Part shown: one piece after another, positions 2,505 through 37,212 of the stretch
Layout: every line of letters starts with the position of its first letter
How positions within the stretch are numbered: position 1 is the first letter of the stretch
UHGV virus genome: UHGV-0130034
Origin: a virus
Reading direction: 5' to 3' (one strand)
Length of the DNA stretch: 39,707 bases
Program-made: the position numbers and the translations under genes
The notes under the pieces: generated by a model
The model's input: only the letters and a program-made list of their open reading frames with translations
Databases searched by the model: none
What the model was told of the DNA's origin: nothing

Positions 2505-3407
2505 TCAGTAGTTATGTACTGAAGGAGGTAATTCTTTATTCTTAAGTCTCATCCATGCGGAAAGATTCGTTGGTCCGTCTGGCTCATTAATATCAACATC
2601 TCGTGTGTGGTTTATTAAAACGTCTCTCGCCATTCCGATAACATACGAGAACTCATGACCGTAGTCGTAGCATCTGCCGGAATAGTTCGATTGAATTTGT
2701 TTTAGCGCCGGATACAGTTCGCGGAATAATGCCTGTGAGCGGTTGGCATAATCCCATAACCATACAAGGCTGTTTGCTTCTTTTGCAGAAAGCTCGTTGG
2801 TTTTCTTCTCTTGTTTGCCAATGAACTCGCCTTCAAGCACTACCCTGTGGATGTACTCTACTGCTTGCGGTATCTGAGATGAATCAAGCTCTTCAATACT
2901 TTCCACGTTGAAACGCTGATGAATCATTGCATAAGCTTCTGGGTACATTAGATGCTTTTTGCTGACTAGCATATTTACAGCATCACGAAGCGGAGTCCTG
3001 TCATCAACAGATGTTTTCTTACGTGCATTTTCTGCCTTTCCCTTTGTCCAGTAGTCATGCAGTACAGTAAAGCATTCTTCCTGGTACTGAATCAGTTTAT
3101 CGCGGATGTCAGCTCGAACTTTCTCAGGGTTGATGCTGAACAGCCATCCATTTAACTTCTTCAAAGGAAGGCAGAGTAGCTTACGAAGCTTCCCATCAGC
3201 GGCAACCATATTCATATGAATACAGTTGAACTTATCTAGTTGTTTCATAAGTTTTTGTTGCTGAGTACCCCAACTCATTCCAAGGTTTTCAACGATTGGC
3301 TTCATCGCAACGTATGCAACTCCGGCAGCCATGGCGGTGATAATTTGCTGACCGTTGAATGGTACGTAAGAGGTGTTCACTGCTTCTAAAATTGCTATAC
3401 TATTCAT
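2505..3407 (-). CDS. ant: Antirepressor Ant (start placed at [11 protein letters not shown], internal to the longer ORF)
   Basis: Lies downstream of arc in the immI operon; N-terminal Ant-like sequence; the 22-codon upstream extension is rejected. Confidence 0.8.
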
Positions 3408-3475
3408 GTTGGTTTTTCTCCACGGATTTACTGACAACCGAAGCCCTGACTGTTCCCGCAGTTGGGGCTTCAACT

Positions 3476-3637
3476 TTACGCGCCAATGCGCCCTTCCTTC
3501 TTAAAGCTTTCCATTACTCTCTGATAAATCTCAGAGTTAACAGACCGACCATTCTCTTCCGCCACCTTGCGTACCAAATCTAATACTTCTTTAGGCCACC
3601 GCAAATTGAACTGCGGCATCTTGCTCATTCCTTTCAT
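3476..3637 (-). CDS. arc: Arc repressor (53 aa)
   Basis: [53 protein letters not shown] is near-identical to recalled P22 Arc; the ORF-track N-terminal extension overlaps the Arc operator and is rejected. Confidence 0.95.
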
Positions 3638-3652
3638 ATTCACCTCACAATA

Positions 3653-3671
3653 TAGGTCCACCGTGGACCTA
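3653..3671. promoter_or_regulatory. Mnt operator (perfect palindrome TAGGTCCACCGTGGACCTA)
   Basis: Perfect 19-bp palindrome between the divergent arc and mnt genes, as in the P22 immI region. Confidence 0.85.
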
Positions 3672-3679
3672 TTGAGAAT

Positions 3680-3700
3680 ATAGTAGAGTGCTTCTATCAT
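3680..3700. promoter_or_regulatory. Arc operator (ATAGTAGAGTGCTTCTATCAT) overlapping Pant
   Basis: 21-bp symmetric site matching the recalled P22 Arc operator, located upstream of arc. Confidence 0.85.
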
Positions 3701-3727
3701 GTCAATACACTAACTTGGAGTGATGGC

Positions 3728-3979
3728 ATGGCTAGAGATGATCCGCACTTTAACTTCCGTATGCCTATGGAAGTAAGGGAGAAATTAAAATTCAGGGCGG
3801 AGGCGAATGGGAGATCAATGAACTCCGAGTTGTTACAAATCGTCCAAGATGCTCTATCAAAACCATCGCCTGTGACTGGATATCGCGACGATGCAGAACG
3901 ACTCGCTGATGAGCAGTCAGAGCTTGTTAAGAAGATGGTGTTTGATACGCTGAAGGATTTGTACAAAAAACCCACCTGA
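3728..3979 (+). CDS. mnt: Mnt repressor
   Basis: MARDDPHFNFRMPMEVREKLKFRAEANGRSMNSELLQIVQDALSKPSPVTGYR... is near-identical to recalled P22 Mnt. Confidence 0.95.
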   Translation: MARDDPHFNFRMPMEVREKLKFRAEANGRSMNSELLQIVQDALSKPSPVTGYRDDAERLADEQSELVKKMVFDTLKDLYKKPT

Positions 3980-23369: not shown

Positions 23370-23977
23370 GCGGCCTCACTTCTGCTATTTCGCAGGTCTT
23401 TGAGTTTCTGTTGGTACTCTGCCTTGATCGCCTTGCACTCTTCGATAGTCCAGCGATGGCGGTTATGGTTTGATTCGATTTCGTCTACTGCTTCCTGCCC
23501 GATGCGGCTAATCAGTTCGACGCGATACGGAACGAGATTTCCGCTTTTGTGCTGGTTGCACACCACGCATTGCTTGTGAATATTGCGTTCATCAAATCGG
23601 AGTTGAGGTGCCGCAGCAGTTGTCCGGTAATGTCCGGCATCCCACTGAGCAGACGTGATCGTTCCGCACGAGATACATGGTAAGTCGCGGTCTCTTTCTC
23701 TGATGAAGGCGTTTACGGCTTGTTGGGATTGTTTAATCCAGTAACTGCGGGGCTTTAAGGCGAGTTTTCGAATCTTCAGTTTATCTTTCTGTTTCTGCTC
23801 CTCTCGTCGTCGTTTCTTCTCTGCTGCTTTTTCCGCTTTTTCGCGTTCTTTGCTTCGTCGTTCGAGTGCTATCTTGGTTCCACACTCTGGAGAGCACCAC
23901 CACTGATTAGCGAATGCAGGGTGAAACCATTCCCGGCATTCATCGTTTTTACATCGTCTTCGCGCTGGTTTAGCCAT
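23366..23977 (-). CDS. ninG: NinG (Rap-like recombination protein)
   Basis: Cys-rich, basic Lys/Arg/Glu tract; 203 aa; position as lambda ninG. Confidence 0.85.
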
Positions 23978-24246
23978 TATGGTTCGCTCCAGTAATTCTC
24001 AATTGCAGCAGCCATTCTCTGCATCCACTCAGCCAGCTTTAACGCGGCTTCTCTTTCAGAACCACATTTAGGGAAATCCTTCATTTCCATGCTGGCCTTA
24101 TATGTTCTGAATGCCAGGTCTCCGGTAATAACCAACTCCTGATCAAGCACCGAGCGTTTATTCCGGTGTTGAACGTAATAGACAGATTCAGTCCGCATTT
24201 CTTCTCTGTCTTTTTTGAAGGAAATAAGCTCAGAGAAATCACTCAT
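23977..24246 (-). CDS. Hypothetical nin-region protein (89 aa)
   Basis: ORF coupled to ninF (ATGAGTGA overlap) and ninG; no lambda counterpart recalled. Confidence 0.6.
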
Positions 24247-24409
24247 CGTCTTCTTCCTCGTACATTGAGCTATTCGGATCGCTCATCAGTTCTGCGCAGC
24301 AGTGCTCACATACGTGAACTTCCAGCACATGCAGCTTCTGACCGCAGTTAGCGCACGTTAAAGCTCGCTCGACGCTTTCTTGTTCGTAACTTCGATTTGG
24401 GTCAATCAC
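24239..24409 (-). CDS. ninF: NinF (56 aa, GTG start; absent from the ORF track)
   Basis: Manual translation [57 protein letters not shown] matches recalled lambda NinF. Confidence 0.8.
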
Positions 24410-24588
24410 CTTGTATTCCTCGCACGTTCTCTAAGCCACCGGATATCCCACAGGTGAGCCGTGTAATTGAGGGTTTTTACGTCAGATTCTTTTGGGACTG
24501 GCTTGCGTTTATTTCTGGAGCGTTTCGTTGGAAGGTATTTGCAGTTTTCGCAGATGATGTCGGTGATACTTCGTCGCTGTCGTCTCAT
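24406..24588 (-). CDS. ninE: NinE (start at [10 protein letters not shown])
   Basis: [56 protein letters not shown] matches recalled lambda NinE. Confidence 0.9.
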
Positions 24589-25112
24589 GCCGCCCTCCTG
24601 ACGCCCTGCCCGATCGCCATCAATGCCGCTTTGGATACGGTAGTAAACATCCGTCGAGGACTGATGAACGGTCGCCAAATCAGCAGCATGGAGCCTTTGC
24701 TGTTTCCCTTCTTCTCCAGCCCTGTCGATGGTTCGATAAAATTAATCCGTCCATCAGTGATAATCCGAACTTCGTCGACACTCTCCAGAGCCTTGCTGAA
24801 CCATCCGACTGACATATCCTCTGGCACAAGCATAACTACCGTCTGTCGCTGTTGTATGCACTGCTCAGCTGCTTTTTCCACCCACGGCCTGATATTGCTG
24901 TACGGTGGGTTATTCCAGATTGCACCGTGGCTTATCCACTCAGAATTGAGTGCGTCGTCGGCCTCAGTTAGCCAGTGAGCGCACAGAGCATTTTTGTCGC
25001 TCGCAGCTGAATCCAGCCAGAATCCAAACTCAATATCCAGCGCATCAAAAAGCCAAAGCGGCGTTTGCCAGCAGTCCTTGTCGTGTGCTGGCGTATTTGA
25101 TTTGATAGTCAT
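24585..25112 (-). CDS. Phage orphan DNA N6-adenine methyltransferase (Dam-like)
   Basis: NPPY motif ([10 protein letters not shown]); occupies the ninC/ninD position; ATGA start overlap with ninB stop. Confidence 0.75.
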
Positions 25113-25549
25113 GCAGCCCTGTCTCCCCATCTCGCTTTCCACTCCAGAGCCAGTCGCGCTTCGTCTGACCACTTAACGCCACGCTCTGTACCGAATGCCT
25201 GTATAAGCTCTAATAGCTCCGCAAATTCGCCTACACGCATCCTGCTGGTTGACTGGCCTATTACCACAAAGCCATTCCCGGCAAGGTTAGGAACAACATC
25301 CTGCTGCTTTAATGCTGCGGTAAACACACACTTCCAGCTTTCTGCATCCAGCCAGCGACCATGCCATTCAACCTGACGAGAGACGTCACCTAAGCAGGCC
25401 CATAGCTTCCTGTTTTGGTCTAAGCTGCGGTTGCGTTCCTGAATGGTTACTACGATTGGTTTGGTTGGGTCTGGAAGGATTTGCTGTACTGCGTGAATAG
25501 CGTTTTGCTGATGTGCTGGAGATCGAATTTCAAAGGTTAGTTTTTTCAT
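25109..25549 (-). CDS. ninB: NinB (Orf-like recombination mediator); start at MKKLTFEIRS
   Basis: MKKLTFEIRSPAHQQNAIHAVQQILPDPTKPIVVTIQERNRSLDQNRKLWACLGDVSRQVEWHGRWLD... matches recalled lambda NinB. Confidence 0.95.
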   Translation of the reverse strand: MKKLTFEIRSPAHQQNAIHAVQQILPDPTKPIVVTIQERNRSLDQNRKLWACLGDVSRQVEWHGRWLDAESWKCVFTAALKQQDVVPNLAGNGFVVIGQSTSRMRVGEFAELLELIQAFGTERGVKWSDEARLALEWKARWGDRAA

Positions 25550-25626
25550 GACTTCCCTCTCCCCCAAATAAAAAGGCCTGCGATTACCAGCAGGCCTGTT
25601 ATTAGCTCAGTGATGTAGATGGTCAT

Positions 25627-27507
25627 TTAATACTCCGTCACGTTTTCCTGTCGCCACGCCTCGTCATATTCAGATTTCGGCATATTGGCGATGTAGCTAT
25701 ATGGAGTTCCTGATTCAAGTTGCAGGAACTGGTGCGATTGCTCGTCAAGGAACAACGGGACACCACCTTCCCAACCTTCGCCGTTACGTTGTTTTTCAAG
25801 CATCAAAACAGATGCCGGAGATGCCAGTAGCTGTTCGTCCTTCTCTGACATTTTTTCACCACTCTGAACTCTCTGTAACGCTCTCTCGCGAGCCTTGTTA
25901 CGCCATATGATGAAAAGGTTGTCTGTCAGGTCTGTTATCGCTCCAGAGCCTTTTACGTCCATTTTCCCGGTTGGTTTTTCTTCGCTGTCTCCTTTTCGCG
26001 AGTGAGTAACGAGAATGACGTGGGAGTTTGTTTTGTTTTTGAAGTCGCAAATCGAGTCAACAAACGCCTTCTGCCCGTTATAGTCATCGTCGCCTATGCC
26101 ACATTTCATCAGGCTGTCGATGATGAATAACTGGATGCCGTATCGGCGGCGAGCGTAGTCGAATATTTCGATCAGCCTGTCGGCTTTCGCCGTTCCGGTC
26201 AGGCCAAACACCCAAAGTCTTTCGTCATAAAATTTAAATGCAGAGTCAATTTCCAGCACTGGCGGCATCTTGCAGCACGTCGCCTGACGGGTAAGGCGCT
26301 TAAGGAGAATACCAGGCTTCAGCTCAAGTGACGCGATGCACGTCTTCACACCCTGACGCATTGCCTCAAGTGCCATATGCCCGACAACCTCCGTTTTTCC
26401 GTGACCGTTCACACCATTGACCAGCGTCAACTCGGCCTCACGGAACTGGAATTTATCTGCCAGAGATTCCCACGGTGGATTAAACAGATACTGCTGCTTG
26501 CCGTAGAAAGCGTTGATAGTGTCCTGGTAAAACTCTCGTGCGCTGTAGAGTTCTTCAGGGTCGAAGTATGATGCCGTGCCGATGTACTGCCAGATTTCAT
26601 CCTCGGTAACACCGTTCATCAGGCATTCGTTGATGTCTTTGTACGGCAGAGTAACAAGACGGCAACGATGTTCACCGAGTCGGCTTGCGATTTCCCTTGC
26701 GGCTTCACGACCAACATCATCAACGTCCATCGAGATGAATATTTCCTCAAACCTGTCGAGGTTGTGATACTCAAACTCAATCCACTGTTGCTTAGCACCT
26801 TTCCCGCCACCAAACGGCACGGATAACGCCGAGATGCCGTATTGCGCATAGCTCATACAATCAATTTCGCCTTCGCAAAGTACAACCGCCCTCACGCCAG
26901 CGTCCAGAGCCTGCCATCCGAACAGACAAGGTTCGCAATCACCTTCTGCCATAATGACTTTCTTCCCGTCCGGGCGCTCAGTGCTGATTCGCTTGACCTG
27001 CAACAACTCACCATCGCGTTTGTACGGAAGCACCAGTGCATCAAGTTCTCGTTCTCCATTCCACACCTTGCCGCTGACAACCTCGTAGCGCTTTACGACT
27101 TCTGGCGATATGCCACGCGATTGCAAGTACTCAAGATGGGATTCTGTTCTGGTAACGTAGCGGGCGATTTTCTTGCGATCAGGTCTGGAGAATTTCTTCT
27201 CACGTTTGGCATCGAAATGGTGATCGTCATCCTTGATACCGAGAAATGCTTTCGCTTCCTGCATAGCCTGATGCAGGTTAATTCCACGACATGCCATCCA
27301 CAAATCAAGCATGTCACCGCCGTCTCCCTCAGCGAAATCAGCCCATTTTTTCTTGCCGCTAAGGTTGACCTTAAGGCTGTTTCCCTTGTCGCCGTTGACG
27401 TTACCGGCAACCCACTCATGCCCCTCTTTCTTGCCGTTTGGCAACAGGTGCGGAGCCACCCTGTCAACCTGCGCCCAAAGCAGGTCGCTGAGTTCACTTG
27501 GCGTCAT
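25627..27507 (-). CDS. Bifunctional replicative primase-helicase (Toprim-like central region plus P-loop helicase C-terminus)
   Basis: 626 aa; Walker A-like GVNGHGKT, acidic Toprim-like EGEID/DVDD motifs; directly downstream of the O-like initiator. Confidence 0.75.
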   Translation of the reverse strand: MTPSELSDLLWAQVDRVAPHLLPNGKKEGHEWVAGNVNGDKGNSLKVNLSGKKKWADFAEGDGGDMLDLWMACRGINLHQAMQEAKAFLGIKDDDHHFDAKREKKFSRPDRKKIARYVTRTESHLEYLQSRGISPEVVKRYEVVSGKVWNGERELDALVLPYKRDGELLQVKRISTERPDGKKVIMAEGDCEPCLFGWQALDAGVRAVVLCEGEIDCMSYAQYGISALSVPFGGGKGAKQQWIEFEYHNLDRFEEIFISMDVDDVGREAAREIASRLGEHRCRLVTLPYKDINECLMNGVTEDEIWQYIGTASYFDPEELYSAREFYQDTINAFYGKQQYLFNPPWESLADKFQFREAELTLVNGVNGHGKTEVVGHMALEAMRQGVKTCIASLELKPGILLKRLTRQATCCKMPPVLEIDSAFKFYDERLWVFGLTGTAKADRLIEIFDYARRRYGIQLFIIDSLMKCGIGDDDYNGQKAFVDSICDFKNKTNSHVILVTHSRKGDSEEKPTGKMDVKGSGAITDLTDNLFIIWRNKARERALQRVQSGEKMSEKDEQLLASPASVLMLEKQRNGEGWEGGVPLFLDEQSHQFLQLESGTPYSYIANMPKSEYDEAWRQENVTEY

Positions 27508-27614: not shown

Positions 27615-28475
27615 TCACCTGTCGAAAAACACGTAGCCAGTTTTCGATACGGTGATTGCGGATGATGGTTTGGATTGTGGTTGAATAGTTTCTGGCTTCT
27701 CGTCGTTCCAGCGTTGACCGTTCAGGTAGCTCGATGGTAACAACCTGTCGAATCCGAACTGCTTACCATTCCTGCATGCGATGTCTTCTGCCAGCATCGT
27801 GGCAAACTCTCTTGCCGTACCCCTGGTAGTTTTACGCCATTCCCTGAACTGTGTTCTGAATGCCGAAGCTGCGTTTTTCTTCCCGGCTTTCCGCATGCCT
27901 GCACACCAGAATATTTCCTCGAATGCCTTGTCGGTTTCTTCGTGACGGTCATGTGATTTTTCACACTCCGTCCGAACACTTTCGGACATAGTGTTTTTAT
28001 TATTTCTTTTTTCTTTTGTAATAGTTTCTTTTGTGTGTCCCTGTTTTGGTGACAGCGCTGTCACCGTTTTGGTGACACTTTTTGTCACCAATGCAGTGAC
28101 ATTATCACCAGAGTAGTGACACCCTTCTATTTGCCATTCCTCGATGTTCTTGTTAGGCCCGATTTGCTGGCCTTCGCGAAGGATAACCTTCATCGCGATA
28201 AGCTCATTCTTGGCCTTGTTTACCTTCTGTCTTGGCAGCCTGGTAATTTGAGCTAACTGACTATCAGAGATGCGATCCATCTTTTTACCGTAGCCGTATG
28301 TTTTACGGCATATGGCGTGGGCAACCTTGCTCTGATTTTTCGTTAAATCTGCGCCGATAAGCTCTTCATACAGGGCATTTGCAAGACGGGTATAACCATC
28401 TTCAACTTCTGCCACACGACGCTCCACAGGCCGTTGTGAAGGCCTTAAATGTGTTACGGTTGCAAGATTACTCAT
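27615..28475 (-). CDS. O: Replication initiator O (lambda O-like N-terminal domain)
   Basis: DGY.RL.N.L.E...GADLTK.Q.KV...I.RKTYG..K.MDRI.DSQL..IT.LP...N.AK.EL..M.....G...GPNKNI.EW pattern shared with recalled lambda O; iterons inside the gene. Confidence 0.85.
27992..28124. promoter_or_regulatory. Replication origin inside the O gene: four inverted-repeat iterons (GGTGACA...TGTCACC type) next to an AT-rich tract
   Basis: ggtgacagcgctgtcacc (28048-28065), ggtgacactttttgtcacc (28071-28089), gcagtgacattatcacc (28093-28109), gtagtgacaccc (28113-28124); AT-rich 27992-28030. Confidence 0.75.
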
Positions 28476-30270: not shown

Positions 30271-30380
30271 AGCATTCAAAGCAGAAGGCTTTGAGTAGCG
30301 CGAAATGCAGCTGCAAGACAGCAACCGTGGAGATAAGCATCACGGCGCGTTACTCAAAGCTAACTGACAGGAGAATCCAG

Positions 30381-30707
30381 ATGGATGCACAAACACGCCG
30401 CCGCGAACGTCGCGCAGAGAAACAGGCTCAATGGAAAGCAGCAAATCCCCTGTTGGTTGGGGTAAGCGCAAAGCCAGTTAACCGCCCTATTCTCTCGCTG
30501 AATCGCAAACCGAAATCACGAGTAGAAAGCGCACTGAATCCGATAGACCTTACGGTACTGGCTGAATACCACGAACAGATTGAAAGCAACCTGCAGCGTA
30601 TTGAGCGCAAGAATCAGCGCACATGGTACAGCAAGCCACGCAGTGAAATGGGTGTGACTTGTGTTGGTCGCCAGAAAATGAAATTAGGCAGCAAACCACT
30701 TATTTGA
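30381..30707 (+). CDS. N: Antiterminator N (start at MDAQTRRRERR)
   Basis: MDAQTRRRERRAEKQAQWKAANPLLVGVSAKPVNRPILSLNRKPKSRVESALNPIDLTVLAEYH.QIESNLQRIERKNQRTWYSKP matches recalled lambda N. Confidence 0.95.
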   Translation: MDAQTRRRERRAEKQAQWKAANPLLVGVSAKPVNRPILSLNRKPKSRVESALNPIDLTVLAEYHEQIESNLQRIERKNQRTWYSKPRSEMGVTCVGRQKMKLGSKPLI

Positions 30708-35656: not shown

Positions 35657-35866
35657 ATGGCTATCGCTGCAAGTTACACCATGCATCTCTATTGTGACTG
35701 CCTCCAGTGTACAGATGGCAAATATAAGTCGCCAGACTTCGGTGAGTATATCGGTACGTCATGGACTGGCTGTGCAAAAGAGGCCCGTAAAGACGGGTGG
35801 CGAATAAGTAAAGACAAAACGCGTGCTTTTGCGCCCGGGCATAAAGTTTTGAGGGTTAACAAATGA
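35657..35866 (+). CDS. Hypothetical Cys-rich small protein (69 aa)
   Basis: AAAGGAG RBS; CDCLQC motif. Confidence 0.55.
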   Translation: MAIAASYTMHLYCDCLQCTDGKYKSPDFGEYIGTSWTGCAKEARKDGWRISKDKTRAFAPGHKVLRVNK

Positions 35867-37212
35867 CCACTATTACCAGAGAACAAGCTCTGAAAATTAT
35901 TGAGGCAGCCGATGAGGTTATTAGTGCGCTTGCCGGAACTAACGAGGATGTTCACCCTGGTAGCGATAACATGCTACGCCTGTGGGATGACCTGAATGAC
36001 CGTTACGCTCCCCCGGAAGTAGTGCGTGAGCTGGCACGAATTGCTCTGGCATCGCTGGAAGCAAAACCAATAGGTGCATTCCACATTGCAGAACAGCAAG
36101 TTGACGGCACAAGTGACTACCTCAAGGATGGAGAATGGCCTATTGATAATGGAATTATTGAGGTCTACGCCGCTCCCCCCGTTCCAGTAGTACCTGAAGA
36201 AAAACCAATGCCTAACGCTCTAAGCATGCTTGAAAGAGAGATCACACAACTGATTGGTGATGCGCAGGAAGCCACTGTTACTGGCTATGAGTTAATCGCT
36301 GAAGCTTGGCGTTTGATGGATGGACAAGACCCTAAAACCAGCGATTGGCATAGCAAGGCTTCGAAGTATTTAAATTCCAATATTGTAGAAAAAGTTTATG
36401 ATGACCGTATTGAGGCTGTTAAGGCTGTTTTGCGTAGACTGGCTGGCAACTCTCCGGTAATTCCAGGTGAGGTGCTGTCAGCAATTATGAAGGTTGCCAG
36501 GGTTCGTGCCGATTTCGATGATTTTGACGGTGACAGGCGAGGTATCGGTGATTGTCTGGATGAGGCTGAGCAAGAGCTTATCGTTACCATTAACAAATAT
36601 GCCAGTCAGTTGGCAGCAGAACCGATAGCGACTAATGACGTTCGAGAGCAGCAGACAGCCGTTCCGCCAGTTCCGGAAATACAGGCTGATGTCGCGCAAG
36701 CAATTGAAAATCTCAAGCAGAAGTTAGTGGAATGCAATCGCTATAACTACTGCGCAGATGCAGTTAAGGGCGTAGAGGATGCCTGCCACGCTGCCATGCT
36801 TCAGGGTATCCAACCTGTAAGCCAAACTTACAACTTGCCAGAATTAATCGAAGGGATGGAAGTTTCCATTGATGTAAGCACTTGTGATGCTGATTTAGGT
36901 AATCGCTATTTCGGCACCGTCACCGAGGCGTTAGAACTTGATACAGCCAAGAATGGTTACATCCTCCTGGTTCAGGACGCAGAGCCAAACTTCGATGTAA
37001 ATAGCAACTCTCCGGTAACTCCGGATGGTTGGATAAGCTGTAGTGAGCGAATGCCAAACGAAGAAGATGTTTTGGTTTATTGTTCAGACACAAAAGAGCA
37101 GATGGTAGGGTTTCACAAAGGTAAAGGGTTATTTCAATTCTTTTACATGAACGGTGTTGAGGGGGTATGTGAGCCGTCACACTGGATGCCGCTACCAGAG
37201 CCTCCACTTTGA
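35863..37212 (+). CDS. Hypothetical protein with DUF551-like C-terminus (449 aa)
   Basis: C-terminal ...HWMPLPEPP, as recalled for DUF551 proteins of lambdoid early regions. Confidence 0.6.
   Translation: MTTITREQALKIIEAADEVISALAGTNEDVHPGSDNMLRLWDDLNDRYAPPEVVRELARIALASLEAKPIGAFHIAEQQVDGTSDYLKDGEWPIDNGIIEVYAAPPVPVVPEEKPMPNALSMLEREITQLIGDAQEATVTGYELIAEAWRLMDGQDPKTSDWHSKASKYLNSNIVEKVYDDRIEAVKAVLRRLAGNSPVIPGEVLSAIMKVARVRADFDDFDGDRRGIGDCLDEAEQELIVTINKYASQLAAEPIATNDVREQQTAVPPVPEIQADVAQAIENLKQKLVECNRYNYCADAVKGVEDACHAAMLQGIQPVSQTYNLPELIEGMEVSIDVSTCDADLGNRYFGTVTEALELDTAKNGYILLVQDAEPNFDVNSNSPVTPDGWISCSERMPNEEDVLVYCSDTKEQMVGFHKGKGLFQFFYMNGVEGVCEPSHWMPLPEPPL

What the first reader, a model, noticed from the sequence alone, without database searches (positions are those of the whole stretch)
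24585..25112. Orphan Dam-like N6-adenine methyltransferase replacing ninC/ninD in a lambda-type nin region
An ORF with an NPPY catalytic motif is start/stop-coupled to ninB and ninE. It has no cognate restriction enzyme in the window, suggesting self-protection against host restriction or epigenetic control of phage or host genes.
Basis: partly seen in the sequence, partly recalled or inferred. Interest (0 to 1): 0.45.

Follow-up and report, generated by a model that had tools for sequence, protein, structure and literature searches.

The report
Known lambdoid phage GATC adenine methyltransferase
The ORF is real and is a DNA adenine methyltransferase, but it is an ordinary, already characterised gene: it differs by one residue from M.EcoVT2Dam of Shiga-toxin phage VT2-Sakai and sits in the same ninB–ninE slot in about 29% of complete E. 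coli genomes.

Summary
Window 24585-25112, minus strand, encodes a 175-aa protein with NPPY at residues 68-71. ATGA start/stop overlaps join it to ninB upstream and ninE downstream.

The protein matches Pfam PF05869 (8e-65) and the NCBIfam equivalog TIGR01712 "phage N-6-adenine-methyltransferase" (264 bits, cutoff 97). It is 174/175 identical to VT2-Sakai orf32, which is M.EcoVT2Dam and is reported to methylate GATC. It is 100% identical to the phage Nil2 protein.

The same ninB-MTase-ninE cassette occurs in phages 434, mEp043, HK140, Sf101 and the Stx phages, and the gene is found in 1566 of 5426 complete E. coli genomes.

Homology to lambda stops at the last base of ninB and resumes 7 nt into ninE. 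The "replaces ninC/ninD" description is therefore literally correct, but this is a common mosaic alternative.

No restriction-enzyme family was found among the other ORFs scanned, so the gene is an orphan.

"Dam-like" holds for the target only. There is no sequence similarity to E. coli Dam (PF02086), and the predicted fold is closest to PCIF1/CAPAM and then to gamma-class adenine MTases such as M.TaqI.

The most likely role is to top up GATC methylation of fast-replicating phage DNA during lytic growth.

Novelty: already known. Interest: low.

The parts
24585..25112 (-). Orphan phage N6-adenine DNA methyltransferase CDS (175 aa, ATG 25112, TGA 24587..24585). PF05869 / TIGR01712. 174/175 identical to VT2-Sakai orf32 (M.EcoVT2Dam).
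24900..24911 (-). Codons for N68-P69-P70-Y71, the catalytic motif IV. It follows predicted strand 63-66.
   Evidence: Sequence read. Invariant in the alignments. Secondary structure.
24999..25022 (-). Codons for residues 31-38 (FWLDSAAS). This is predicted strand beta-1 plus a loop with invariant L33 and D34, and is the inferred AdoMet-binding (motif I-like) segment, N-terminal to NPPY.
25109..25112 (-). ATGA overlap: ninB stop and MTase start (translational coupling).
24585..24588 (-). ATGA overlap: MTase stop and ninE start.
25109..25549 (-). ninB/orf recombination mediator (146 aa). 99.6% DNA identity to lambda up to its last base.
24406..24588 (-). ninE (60 aa). Lambda homology resumes 7 nt into this gene.
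25574..25597 (-). Intrinsic-terminator-like hairpin (AGGCCTGC-loop-GCAGGCCT followed by TTTTATTT) between the primase-helicase gene and ninB. It is equivalent to lambda 40596-40619, the position I recall for tR2. It makes expression of the MTase dependent on N antitermination (inferred).
   Evidence: Coordinates mapped. Identity with tR2 rests on my own knowledge.
30291..30707 (+). N-type antiterminator ORF (Pfam N36 domain). Inferred to be needed for read-through into the nin region.
   Evidence: The role is inferred from lambda biology.

Best explanation
The ORF encodes a small, single-domain, orphan N6-adenine DNA methyltransferase of the HP1 Dam / T1 Dam / M.EcoVT2Dam family (PF05869, TIGR01712). 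It uses S-adenosylmethionine to methylate the adenine of GATC.

It is a delayed-early gene of the PR operon. It is translationally coupled between ninB and ninE and lies downstream of a tR2-position terminator, so it is made mainly during lytic growth after N antitermination and not in the repressed prophage.

Its most likely job (inferred) is to supplement the limiting host Dam, so that rapidly replicating phage DNA is packaged fully GATC-methylated. That would protect progeny DNA from methylation-sensitive GATC-directed nucleases (DpnII/MboI type) in the next host. It would also avoid the consequences of un- or hemi-methylated GATC, namely MutH nicking and SeqA binding.

Shown here: family membership, intact catalytic motif, near-identity to the characterised enzyme, gene context, and no restriction-enzyme family among the ORFs scanned.

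Inferred: GATC specificity of this exact copy, timing of expression, and the biological benefit.
For: - Family: PF05869 8.3e-65; TIGR01712 equivalog 264 bits against cutoff 97; PHROG 111 'DNA methyltransferase' 8.6e-88.
- Identity: 174/175 to VT2-Sakai orf32 NP_050531 and 100% to phage Nil2.
- Specificity: M.EcoVT2Dam is stated to target GATC, citing Radlinska & Bujnicki 2001 (PMC6602927).
- The single difference, I60V, falls in a variable column of the family alignment.
- Conservation: 35% and 32% identity to HP1 Dam and T1 Dam, with D34, N68-P69-P70-Y71-S72 and other columns invariant.
- Orphan status: no REase family in Pfam, PHROG or PADLOC scans of the other window ORFs scanned. The flanks are always ninB and ninE in the listed E. 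coli genome hits.
- Expression context: terminator-like hairpin at 25597..25574 upstream of ninB and an N homologue at 30291-30707.
- Need for a top-up: P22 and lambda virion DNA is reported to be under-methylated by host Dam, possibly because replication outstrips modification (PMC8022706).
- Protective effect in a related setting: the lactococcal phage enzyme M.Phi93DAM, described as carrying only an NPPY motif, gives G6mATC and DpnII resistance (PMC4190342). A 936-group phage methylase at the same genome position is 30.6% identical to the query (H90).
Against: - Nothing here measures activity.
- GATC specificity rests on a secondary citation; the primary 2001 paper was not available.
- In a dam+ host the mark is redundant in kind, so the selective benefit is not obvious, and no phenotype of a deletion is known to me.
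- GATC is itself about two-fold depleted in this genome: 88 observed against 168 (shuffles), 192 (Markov) or 154 (base composition) expected. This reduces how much there is to protect.
- A phi24B copy of the gene was detected in lysogen cultures (PMC3342100), so strictly lytic expression is not proven.
- About nine window ORFs have no assigned function, so an unrecognised nuclease partner cannot be formally excluded.
Confidence: 0.85

Rival explanations
1. Epigenetic regulator in the lysogen. The prophage-encoded enzyme is expressed during lysogeny and methylates GATC sites in host or prophage regulatory regions. This would stabilise lysogeny or change host gene expression.
For: - The identical-class gene of phage phi24B (clone CM2, 100% identical to VT2-Sakai NP_050531) was recovered in a screen for proteins expressed in lysogen cultures. 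The authors suggest it may supplement host Dam (PMC3342100).
- Host Dam is reported to be required for stable 933W lysogeny (Murphy et al. 2008, as cited).
Against: - The gene sits in the cI-repressed PR operon behind a terminator-like hairpin.
- Lysogen cultures always contain spontaneously induced cells, and CM2 expression changed significantly on induction.
- GATC sites in STEC lysogens are already 99.9% methylated (PMC6602927), so an extra GATC enzyme adds no information.
- A prophage-encoded Dam homologue in E. coli EC958 was judged inactive by RT-PCR (PMC4659465). I did not verify that it belongs to the same family.
Confidence: 0.1
2. Anti-restriction enzyme with a specificity other than GATC. 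It would give the phage a mark the host does not supply.
For: - Small changes in target-recognition regions can change MTase specificity (a general point made in PMC6602927).
- The family has no solved structure, so the specificity determinants are unknown.
Against: - The protein is 174/175 identical to an enzyme reported as GATC-specific, and the one difference (I60V) is conservative and lies in a variable column.
- More distant family members carry the name Dam: HP1 Dam and T1 Dam from the records and my own knowledge. M.Phi93DAM, whose family membership I did not test, gave G6mATC.
Confidence: 0.03
3. Inactive remnant carried along by nin-region mosaicism.
For: The nin region is dispensable in lambda (PMC8022706), so there is no essential role.
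Against: - The full-length ORF retains every family-invariant residue.
- It is tightly coupled translationally.
- It is conserved at 95% DNA identity or more in 1566 genomes, and at 60-86% protein identity across Enterobacterales genera, named by NCBI as the same equivalog.
Confidence: 0.02

Closest known systems
M.EcoVT2Dam (orf32, NP_050531, of Stx2 phage VT2-Sakai), with identical or near-identical copies in phi24B, Nil2, Lahn2/3, 434, mEp043, HK140 and Sf101 (HK97 per the table in PMC3342100)
   Same: - 174/175 residues identical and the same 175-aa length.
- The same position between ninB and ninE, with the same overlapping stop/start codons.
- Reported GATC m6A specificity.
   Different: - One conservative substitution (I60 here, V60 in VT2-Sakai).
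- The flanking ninB allele differs: VT2-Sakai DNA homology covers only 25120..24401, whereas this window's ninB is the lambda allele.
- The host phage here is a P22-like podovirus (Lederbergvirus-like) and not an Stx phage.
HP1 Dam (Haemophilus phage HP1 orf13) and T1 Dam (coliphage T1 gp20), founding members of PF05869
   Same: - Same Pfam family.
- 35% and 32% identity, with the NPPYS motif and about 38 invariant columns.
- Small orphan enzymes of phage early/replication regions.
   Different: - Much more divergent.
- T1 Dam has a 36-residue N-terminal extension plus two internal insertions (9 and 14 residues).
- The genomic context differs: a P2-like phage and a virulent T1-like phage, not a nin region.
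E. coli Dam / T4 Dam / DpnM (alpha-class, Pfam PF02086, D12 class)
   Same: - Same chemistry (N6-adenine, AdoMet) and, by inference, the same GATC target.
- Orphan status.
   Different: - No detectable sequence similarity (BLASTP E = 7.5) and a different Pfam family.
- About 100 residues shorter, with no inserted target-recognition domain.
- The structural neighbours with higher scores are PCIF1/CAPAM and gamma-class enzymes (M.TaqI, M.BseCI, type I M subunits).
Lambda ninC (PAPS-reductase-like, 290 aa) plus ninD
   Same: They occupy the same slot between ninB and ninE, with the same ATGA-type packing.
   Different: No homology. This is a positional alternative (mosaic cassette) and not a functional equivalent.

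Membership tests
Phage N-6-adenine-methyltransferase (Pfam PF05869 'Dam'; NCBIfam TIGR01712 equivalog) | Full-length match to the family profile above the curated cutoff | tested here: met
   PF05869 scores 218 bits against a cutoff of 28.1, covering profile positions 1-167 of 169. TIGR01712 scores 264.2 bits against a cutoff of 97.05, covering 1-165 of 165.
Phage N-6-adenine-methyltransferase (Pfam PF05869 'Dam'; NCBIfam TIGR01712 equivalog) | Catalytic (D/N)PP(Y/F) motif IV intact, together with the other family-invariant residues | tested here: met
   N68-P69-P70-Y71-S72, D34, W15, T17 and P18 are invariant with HP1 and T1 Dam; of these, D34, T17, P18 and N68-S72 are also invariant among 34 homologues and W15 is nearly invariant there.
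Phage N-6-adenine-methyltransferase (Pfam PF05869 'Dam'; NCBIfam TIGR01712 equivalog) | Small single-domain enzyme (about 170-180 aa; T1 Dam is 237 aa) without a separate target-recognition domain | tested here: met
Phage N-6-adenine-methyltransferase (Pfam PF05869 'Dam'; NCBIfam TIGR01712 equivalog) | Methylates adenine in GATC | not testable with these tools
   Inferred from 99.4% identity to M.EcoVT2Dam, which PMC6602927 reports as GATC-specific. The primary paper is not held.
Orphan (solitary) methyltransferase | No cognate restriction endonuclease gene adjacent or elsewhere in the element | tested here: met
   The immediate neighbours are NinB and NinE. Pfam, PHROG and PADLOC scans of the other ORFs scanned gave no REase family. 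Caveat: about nine ORFs have no assigned function.
E. coli Dam / T4 Dam / DpnM family (alpha-class, Pfam PF02086) | Sequence membership in the D12-class family | tested here: not met
   E. coli K-12 Dam hits PF02086 at 5e-81, whereas the window protein gives no PF02086 hit even at E <= 10. BLASTP between the two gives E = 7.5.
E. coli Dam / T4 Dam / DpnM family (alpha-class, Pfam PF02086) | Alpha-class architecture: AdoMet-binding region, then an inserted target-recognition domain, then the catalytic DPPY | tested here: not met
Type II restriction-modification system | MTase paired with a REase of the same specificity | tested here: not met
   No REase was detected. PADLOC's best models for the protein are 'oMTase' (orphan) at 4.8e-19, against 'MTase_II' at 4.8e-07.

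The most novel reading that the evidence does not exclude
The phage GATC methyltransferase may not be merely redundant with host Dam. It could have a specific regulatory or counter-defence role that has never been demonstrated for lambdoid or P22-like phages. Examples would be setting the methylation state of particular GATC sites in phage control, replication or packaging regions, or defeating a host system that senses un- or hemi-methylated GATC on incoming or replicating phage DNA. The strong GATC depletion of the genome (88 sites against about 155-190 expected) together with retention of a dedicated GATC methylase is at least compatible with such a conflict.
Probability: 0.12. Interest if true: 0.45.

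Novelty: already known. Interest (0 to 1): 0.08.

Why it matters
It matters little as a discovery. The gene, its family, its reported specificity and its position in the nin region are already in the literature and in routine annotation ("phage N-6-adenine-methyltransferase").

What remains open is general to the family and not specific to this window: why a phage of a dam+ host carries its own GATC methylase. As far as I could find, nobody has shown a fitness effect for the lambdoid copy.

The practical lesson for the scan is that "orphan MTase in a nin region" should be treated as a standard mosaic alternative to ninC/ninD.

Tried and rejected
- **PDB sequence search.** Only chance-level hits (SdiA, E = 0.18). 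No solved relative exists.
- **Primary and review papers.** I tried to read Murphy et al. 2008 (PMC2223730), Murphy et al. 2013 (PMC3837797) and Cheng et al. 1995 (PMC1206672). None is held. Statements about them are second-hand or from my own knowledge. Radlinska & Bujnicki 2001 was seen only as a citation.
- **Longer 195-aa GTG-start reading (25172), as annotated in Sf101.** Considered and rejected. The family profiles and the large homologue clusters begin at the ATG.
- **The 193-aa plus-strand ORF 24397..24978 antisense to the gene.** Considered and rejected. It is a shadow ORF of well-supported minus-strand genes.
- **Clustering of GATC sites that might point to a regulated promoter.** Checked: only scattered close pairs (31-63 nt apart), mostly inside structural genes. 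Nothing was convincing and I did not pursue it.
- **Restriction partner.** Looked for among all ORFs without an obvious phage function. None found.

Full report
**1. What is at the coordinates**

The ORF lies on the minus strand. ATG is at 25112..25110 and the TGA stop at 24587..24585, giving 175 aa. The protein reads [20 protein letters not shown]...[10 protein letters not shown]...

- NPPY is residues 68-71, nt 24911..24900.
- The upstream ninB ORF ends with TGA at 25111..25109, so ninB stop and MTase start form an ATGA overlap.
- The MTase stop and the ninE start (ATG 24588..24586) form a second ATGA overlap.
- A purine-rich GGGGAGA...CAGGG stretch precedes the ATG.

A mechanically longer ORF from GTG 25172 (195 aa) exists and is what the Sf101 record annotates. 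The family profiles start at residues 2-4 of the 175-aa form, and the large homologue clusters are 175 aa, so ATG 25112 is preferred.

**2. What it is**

- Pfam gives PF05869 "DNA N-6-adenine-methyltransferase (Dam)" at 8.3e-65 over the whole profile.
- NCBIfam gives the equivalog TIGR01712 "phage N-6-adenine-methyltransferase" at 264 bits against a cutoff of 97.
- PHROGs gives phrog_111 "DNA methyltransferase" at 8.6e-88.
- The neighbours are NinB, NinE, NinF, NinG, NinH, a lambda-type Ser/Thr phosphatase and a Q antiterminator. Upstream lies a 626-aa Toprim/DnaB-like primase-helicase.
- The window as a whole is a P22-like temperate podophage with a lambdoid early region. The structural half matches Louie, IME10, APC_JM3.2 and others, and the early half matches Sf101, HK544 and mEp043.

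**3. It is an already characterised protein**

- The protein is 174/175 identical (I60V) to orf32 of VT2-Sakai (NP_050531), which sits between that phage's ninB and ninE. It is 100% identical to the phage Nil2 product.
- The VT2 enzyme is M.EcoVT2Dam. PMC6602927 states that it is "known to target 5'-GATC-3'", citing Radlinska & Bujnicki 2001.
- The same gene of phage phi24B (clone CM2, 100% identical to NP_050531) is listed with 98-100% identical copies in HK97, Lahn2, Lahn3, Nil2, Min27, CP-933V and others (PMC3342100).
- At the DNA level, the ninB-MTase-ninE block matches 414 phage records. These include phage 434, mEp043, HK140 and many environmental "Lambda_ev" isolates at 97-98%.
- The MTase gene alone is found at 95% identity or more in 1566 of 5426 complete E. 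coli genomes, with up to five places per genome. The listed hits are annotated "phage N-6-adenine-methyltransferase" with NinB and NinE under the match.
- By tblastn, 1901 phage records carry a family member.
- The large protein database shows 60-86% identical orthologues in Pectobacterium, Serratia, Edwardsiella, Yersinia, Providencia, Photorhabdus and others, all named the same way.

**4. "Replacing ninC/ninD"**

Lambda has ninB-ninC-ninD-ninE. BLASTN of the window against lambda shows 99.6% identity from window 25626 to 25109, which is lambda 40567-41084 and ends at the last base of ninB. Homology resumes at window 24581, which is lambda 42097, 7 nt into ninE.

A 1012-bp ninC+ninD segment is thus replaced by a 527-bp MTase segment, with junctions at the gene boundaries. 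VT2-Sakai homology covers only 25120..24401 (MTase plus ninE) and not ninB, so the cassette recombines independently of its neighbours.

This is classical lambdoid mosaicism. The ATGA packing is a known general property of nin regions (PMC8022706). The description is correct, but the arrangement is common.

**5. Orphan status**

Pfam, PHROG and PADLOC scans of the window ORFs without an obvious structural role gave Erf, SSB-like, Abc2, Ead/Ea22, DUF551, P22 antirepressor, N, O, integrase, a tail needle knob, an Acb2/Tad1-like protein and several families of unknown function. No restriction endonuclease family appeared.

PADLOC's best hits for the MTase itself are its "orphan methyltransferase" models, at 4.8e-19 and 4.5e-17. 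About nine ORFs remain without assigned function, so the exclusion is strong but not absolute.

**6. "Dam-like": function, not family**

E. coli K-12 Dam belongs to PF02086 (5e-81). The window protein has no PF02086 hit even at E <= 10, and BLASTP between the two gives E = 7.5. HP1 Dam and T1 Dam are in PF05869 with it and share 35% and 32% identity, including D34 and NPPYS.

No family member has a solved structure. An AlphaFold model from a 34-sequence alignment (pLDDT 76.9, pTM 0.77; weakest at residues 36-70) is a single alpha/beta domain. It has strand 32-35 (FWLD, followed by SAAS) and strand 63-66 leading into NPPY.

- Foldseek finds only weak matches. The best are the cap-adenosine MTase PCIF1/CAPAM, TrmM, METTL4 and CamA.

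The enzyme is thus a minimal Rossmann-fold N6-adenine MTase. The AdoMet-binding strand precedes NPPY, as in gamma-class enzymes, and there is no discrete target-recognition domain. How it reads GATC cannot be said from these data.

**7. How it most likely works in the phage**

The gene lies in the rightward early operon, in the order cro - cII - O - primase/helicase - [hairpin] - ninB - MTase - ninE... - Q, all on the minus strand.

A terminator-like hairpin with a T-run lies at 25597..25574. It falls in sequence 99.6% identical to lambda 40596-40619, immediately upstream of ninB, which is where I recall lambda tR2 to be (own knowledge). An N homologue is present at 30291-30707.

Expression should therefore be N-dependent and delayed-early, repressed by cI in the lysogen, and translationally coupled to ninB. 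This is inferred.

[quoted passage not shown] A phage-encoded GATC methylase made during replication would close that gap.

A protective consequence has been shown experimentally in lactococcal phage Phi93. Its small Dam-type MTase, described as carrying only an NPPY motif, produces G6mATC and DpnII resistance (PMC4190342). A 936-group phage methylase at the same genome position is 30.6% identical to the query (H90). I did not test Phi93's own sequence.

Avoiding MutH nicking or SeqA binding at hemimethylated sites is a further plausible benefit (own knowledge, untested).

**8. GATC content**

The window has 88 GATC sites. Expected values are 167.5 ± 12.6 from dinucleotide-preserving shuffles, 192 from a maximal-order Markov model and 154 from base composition.

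GATC is the second most depleted 4-nt palindrome after CTAG (12 against 44). The sites are spread fairly evenly, with no striking cluster. GATC avoidance in enterobacterial phages and prophages is a known phenomenon (Henaut et al. 1996, as cited in PMC6602927). It means there is less to methylate, but it does not contradict the model.

**9. Rivals**

- **Epigenetic role in the lysogen.** This has been suggested for phi24B because the protein was picked up in lysogen cultures (PMC3342100). However, those cultures contain induced cells, expression changed on induction, and lysogen GATC sites are already 99.9% methylated.
- **Novel specificity.** Very unlikely at 174/175 identity.
- **Dead gene.** Contradicted by conservation.

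**10. Verdict**

It needs correcting on family, on novelty and on the proposed refutation test, which would fail in a dam+ host because the mark coincides with host Dam's. The feature is already known and routinely annotated, so interest is low.

The only open question is why lambdoid phages of dam+ hosts keep a GATC methylase. That question is general to the family and is not raised specifically by this window.

Noticed in passing
window 19625..19909 (-): A 94-aa ORF between the lysis genes and the terminase genes matches Pfam PF24729 (Acb2/Tad1 hairpin domain) at 3.5e-18. This suggests an anti-CBASS/anti-Thoeris cyclic-nucleotide sponge.
   Followed up: no
window 23977..24246 (-): An extra 89-aa ORF sits between ninF and ninG (PHROG 1258, unknown function, no Pfam hit). 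Lambda lacks it: lambda homology jumps from window 24244 to 23980. Its ATG also overlaps the ninG side tightly.
   Followed up: partly
window 25627..27507 (-) and 27615..28475 (-): The replication module is a lambda O-like initiator plus a 626-aa Toprim/DnaB-like primase-helicase in place of lambda P. The same is seen in Sf101 and mEp043.
   Followed up: no
whole window: GATC is about two-fold depleted (88 against 154-192 expected) and CTAG nearly four-fold (12 against 44). GGCC is also low (64 against 119).
   Followed up: partly
window 21998..22027 (-): The strongest sigma-70-like match in the 21.5-30.5 kb region (TTGACA-18-CATAAT, 11 of 12) overlaps the 3' end of the Q gene (stop at 22005). 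This is where a late promoter PR' would be expected. The Q allele (PF06530 plus DUF1133) is not the lambda one, as lambda homology ends at 22521.
   Followed up: no
window 35863..37212 (+): A 449-aa early-left ORF has a C-terminal DUF551 and an N-terminal region stitched from several unknown-function PHROGs (60, 14306, 20174). It looks like a mosaic fusion.
   Followed up: no
window 2505..3979: A P22-type immI region lies next to the tailspike gene. It has an antirepressor with P22_AR N- and C-terminal domains (2505..3473, minus strand) and small divergent ORFs at 3697..3979 that could be arc/mnt-like.
   Followed up: no
window 24397..24978 (+): A 193-aa plus-strand ORF runs antisense to ninE and the MTase gene. 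It is a shadow ORF with no support.
   Followed up: partly
literature: The PF05869 accession is cited in papers on fungal DIRS/Ngaro retrotransposons and on Phytophthora 6mA methyltransferases, so the family may not be confined to phages. I read only the titles and abstracts.
   Followed up: no
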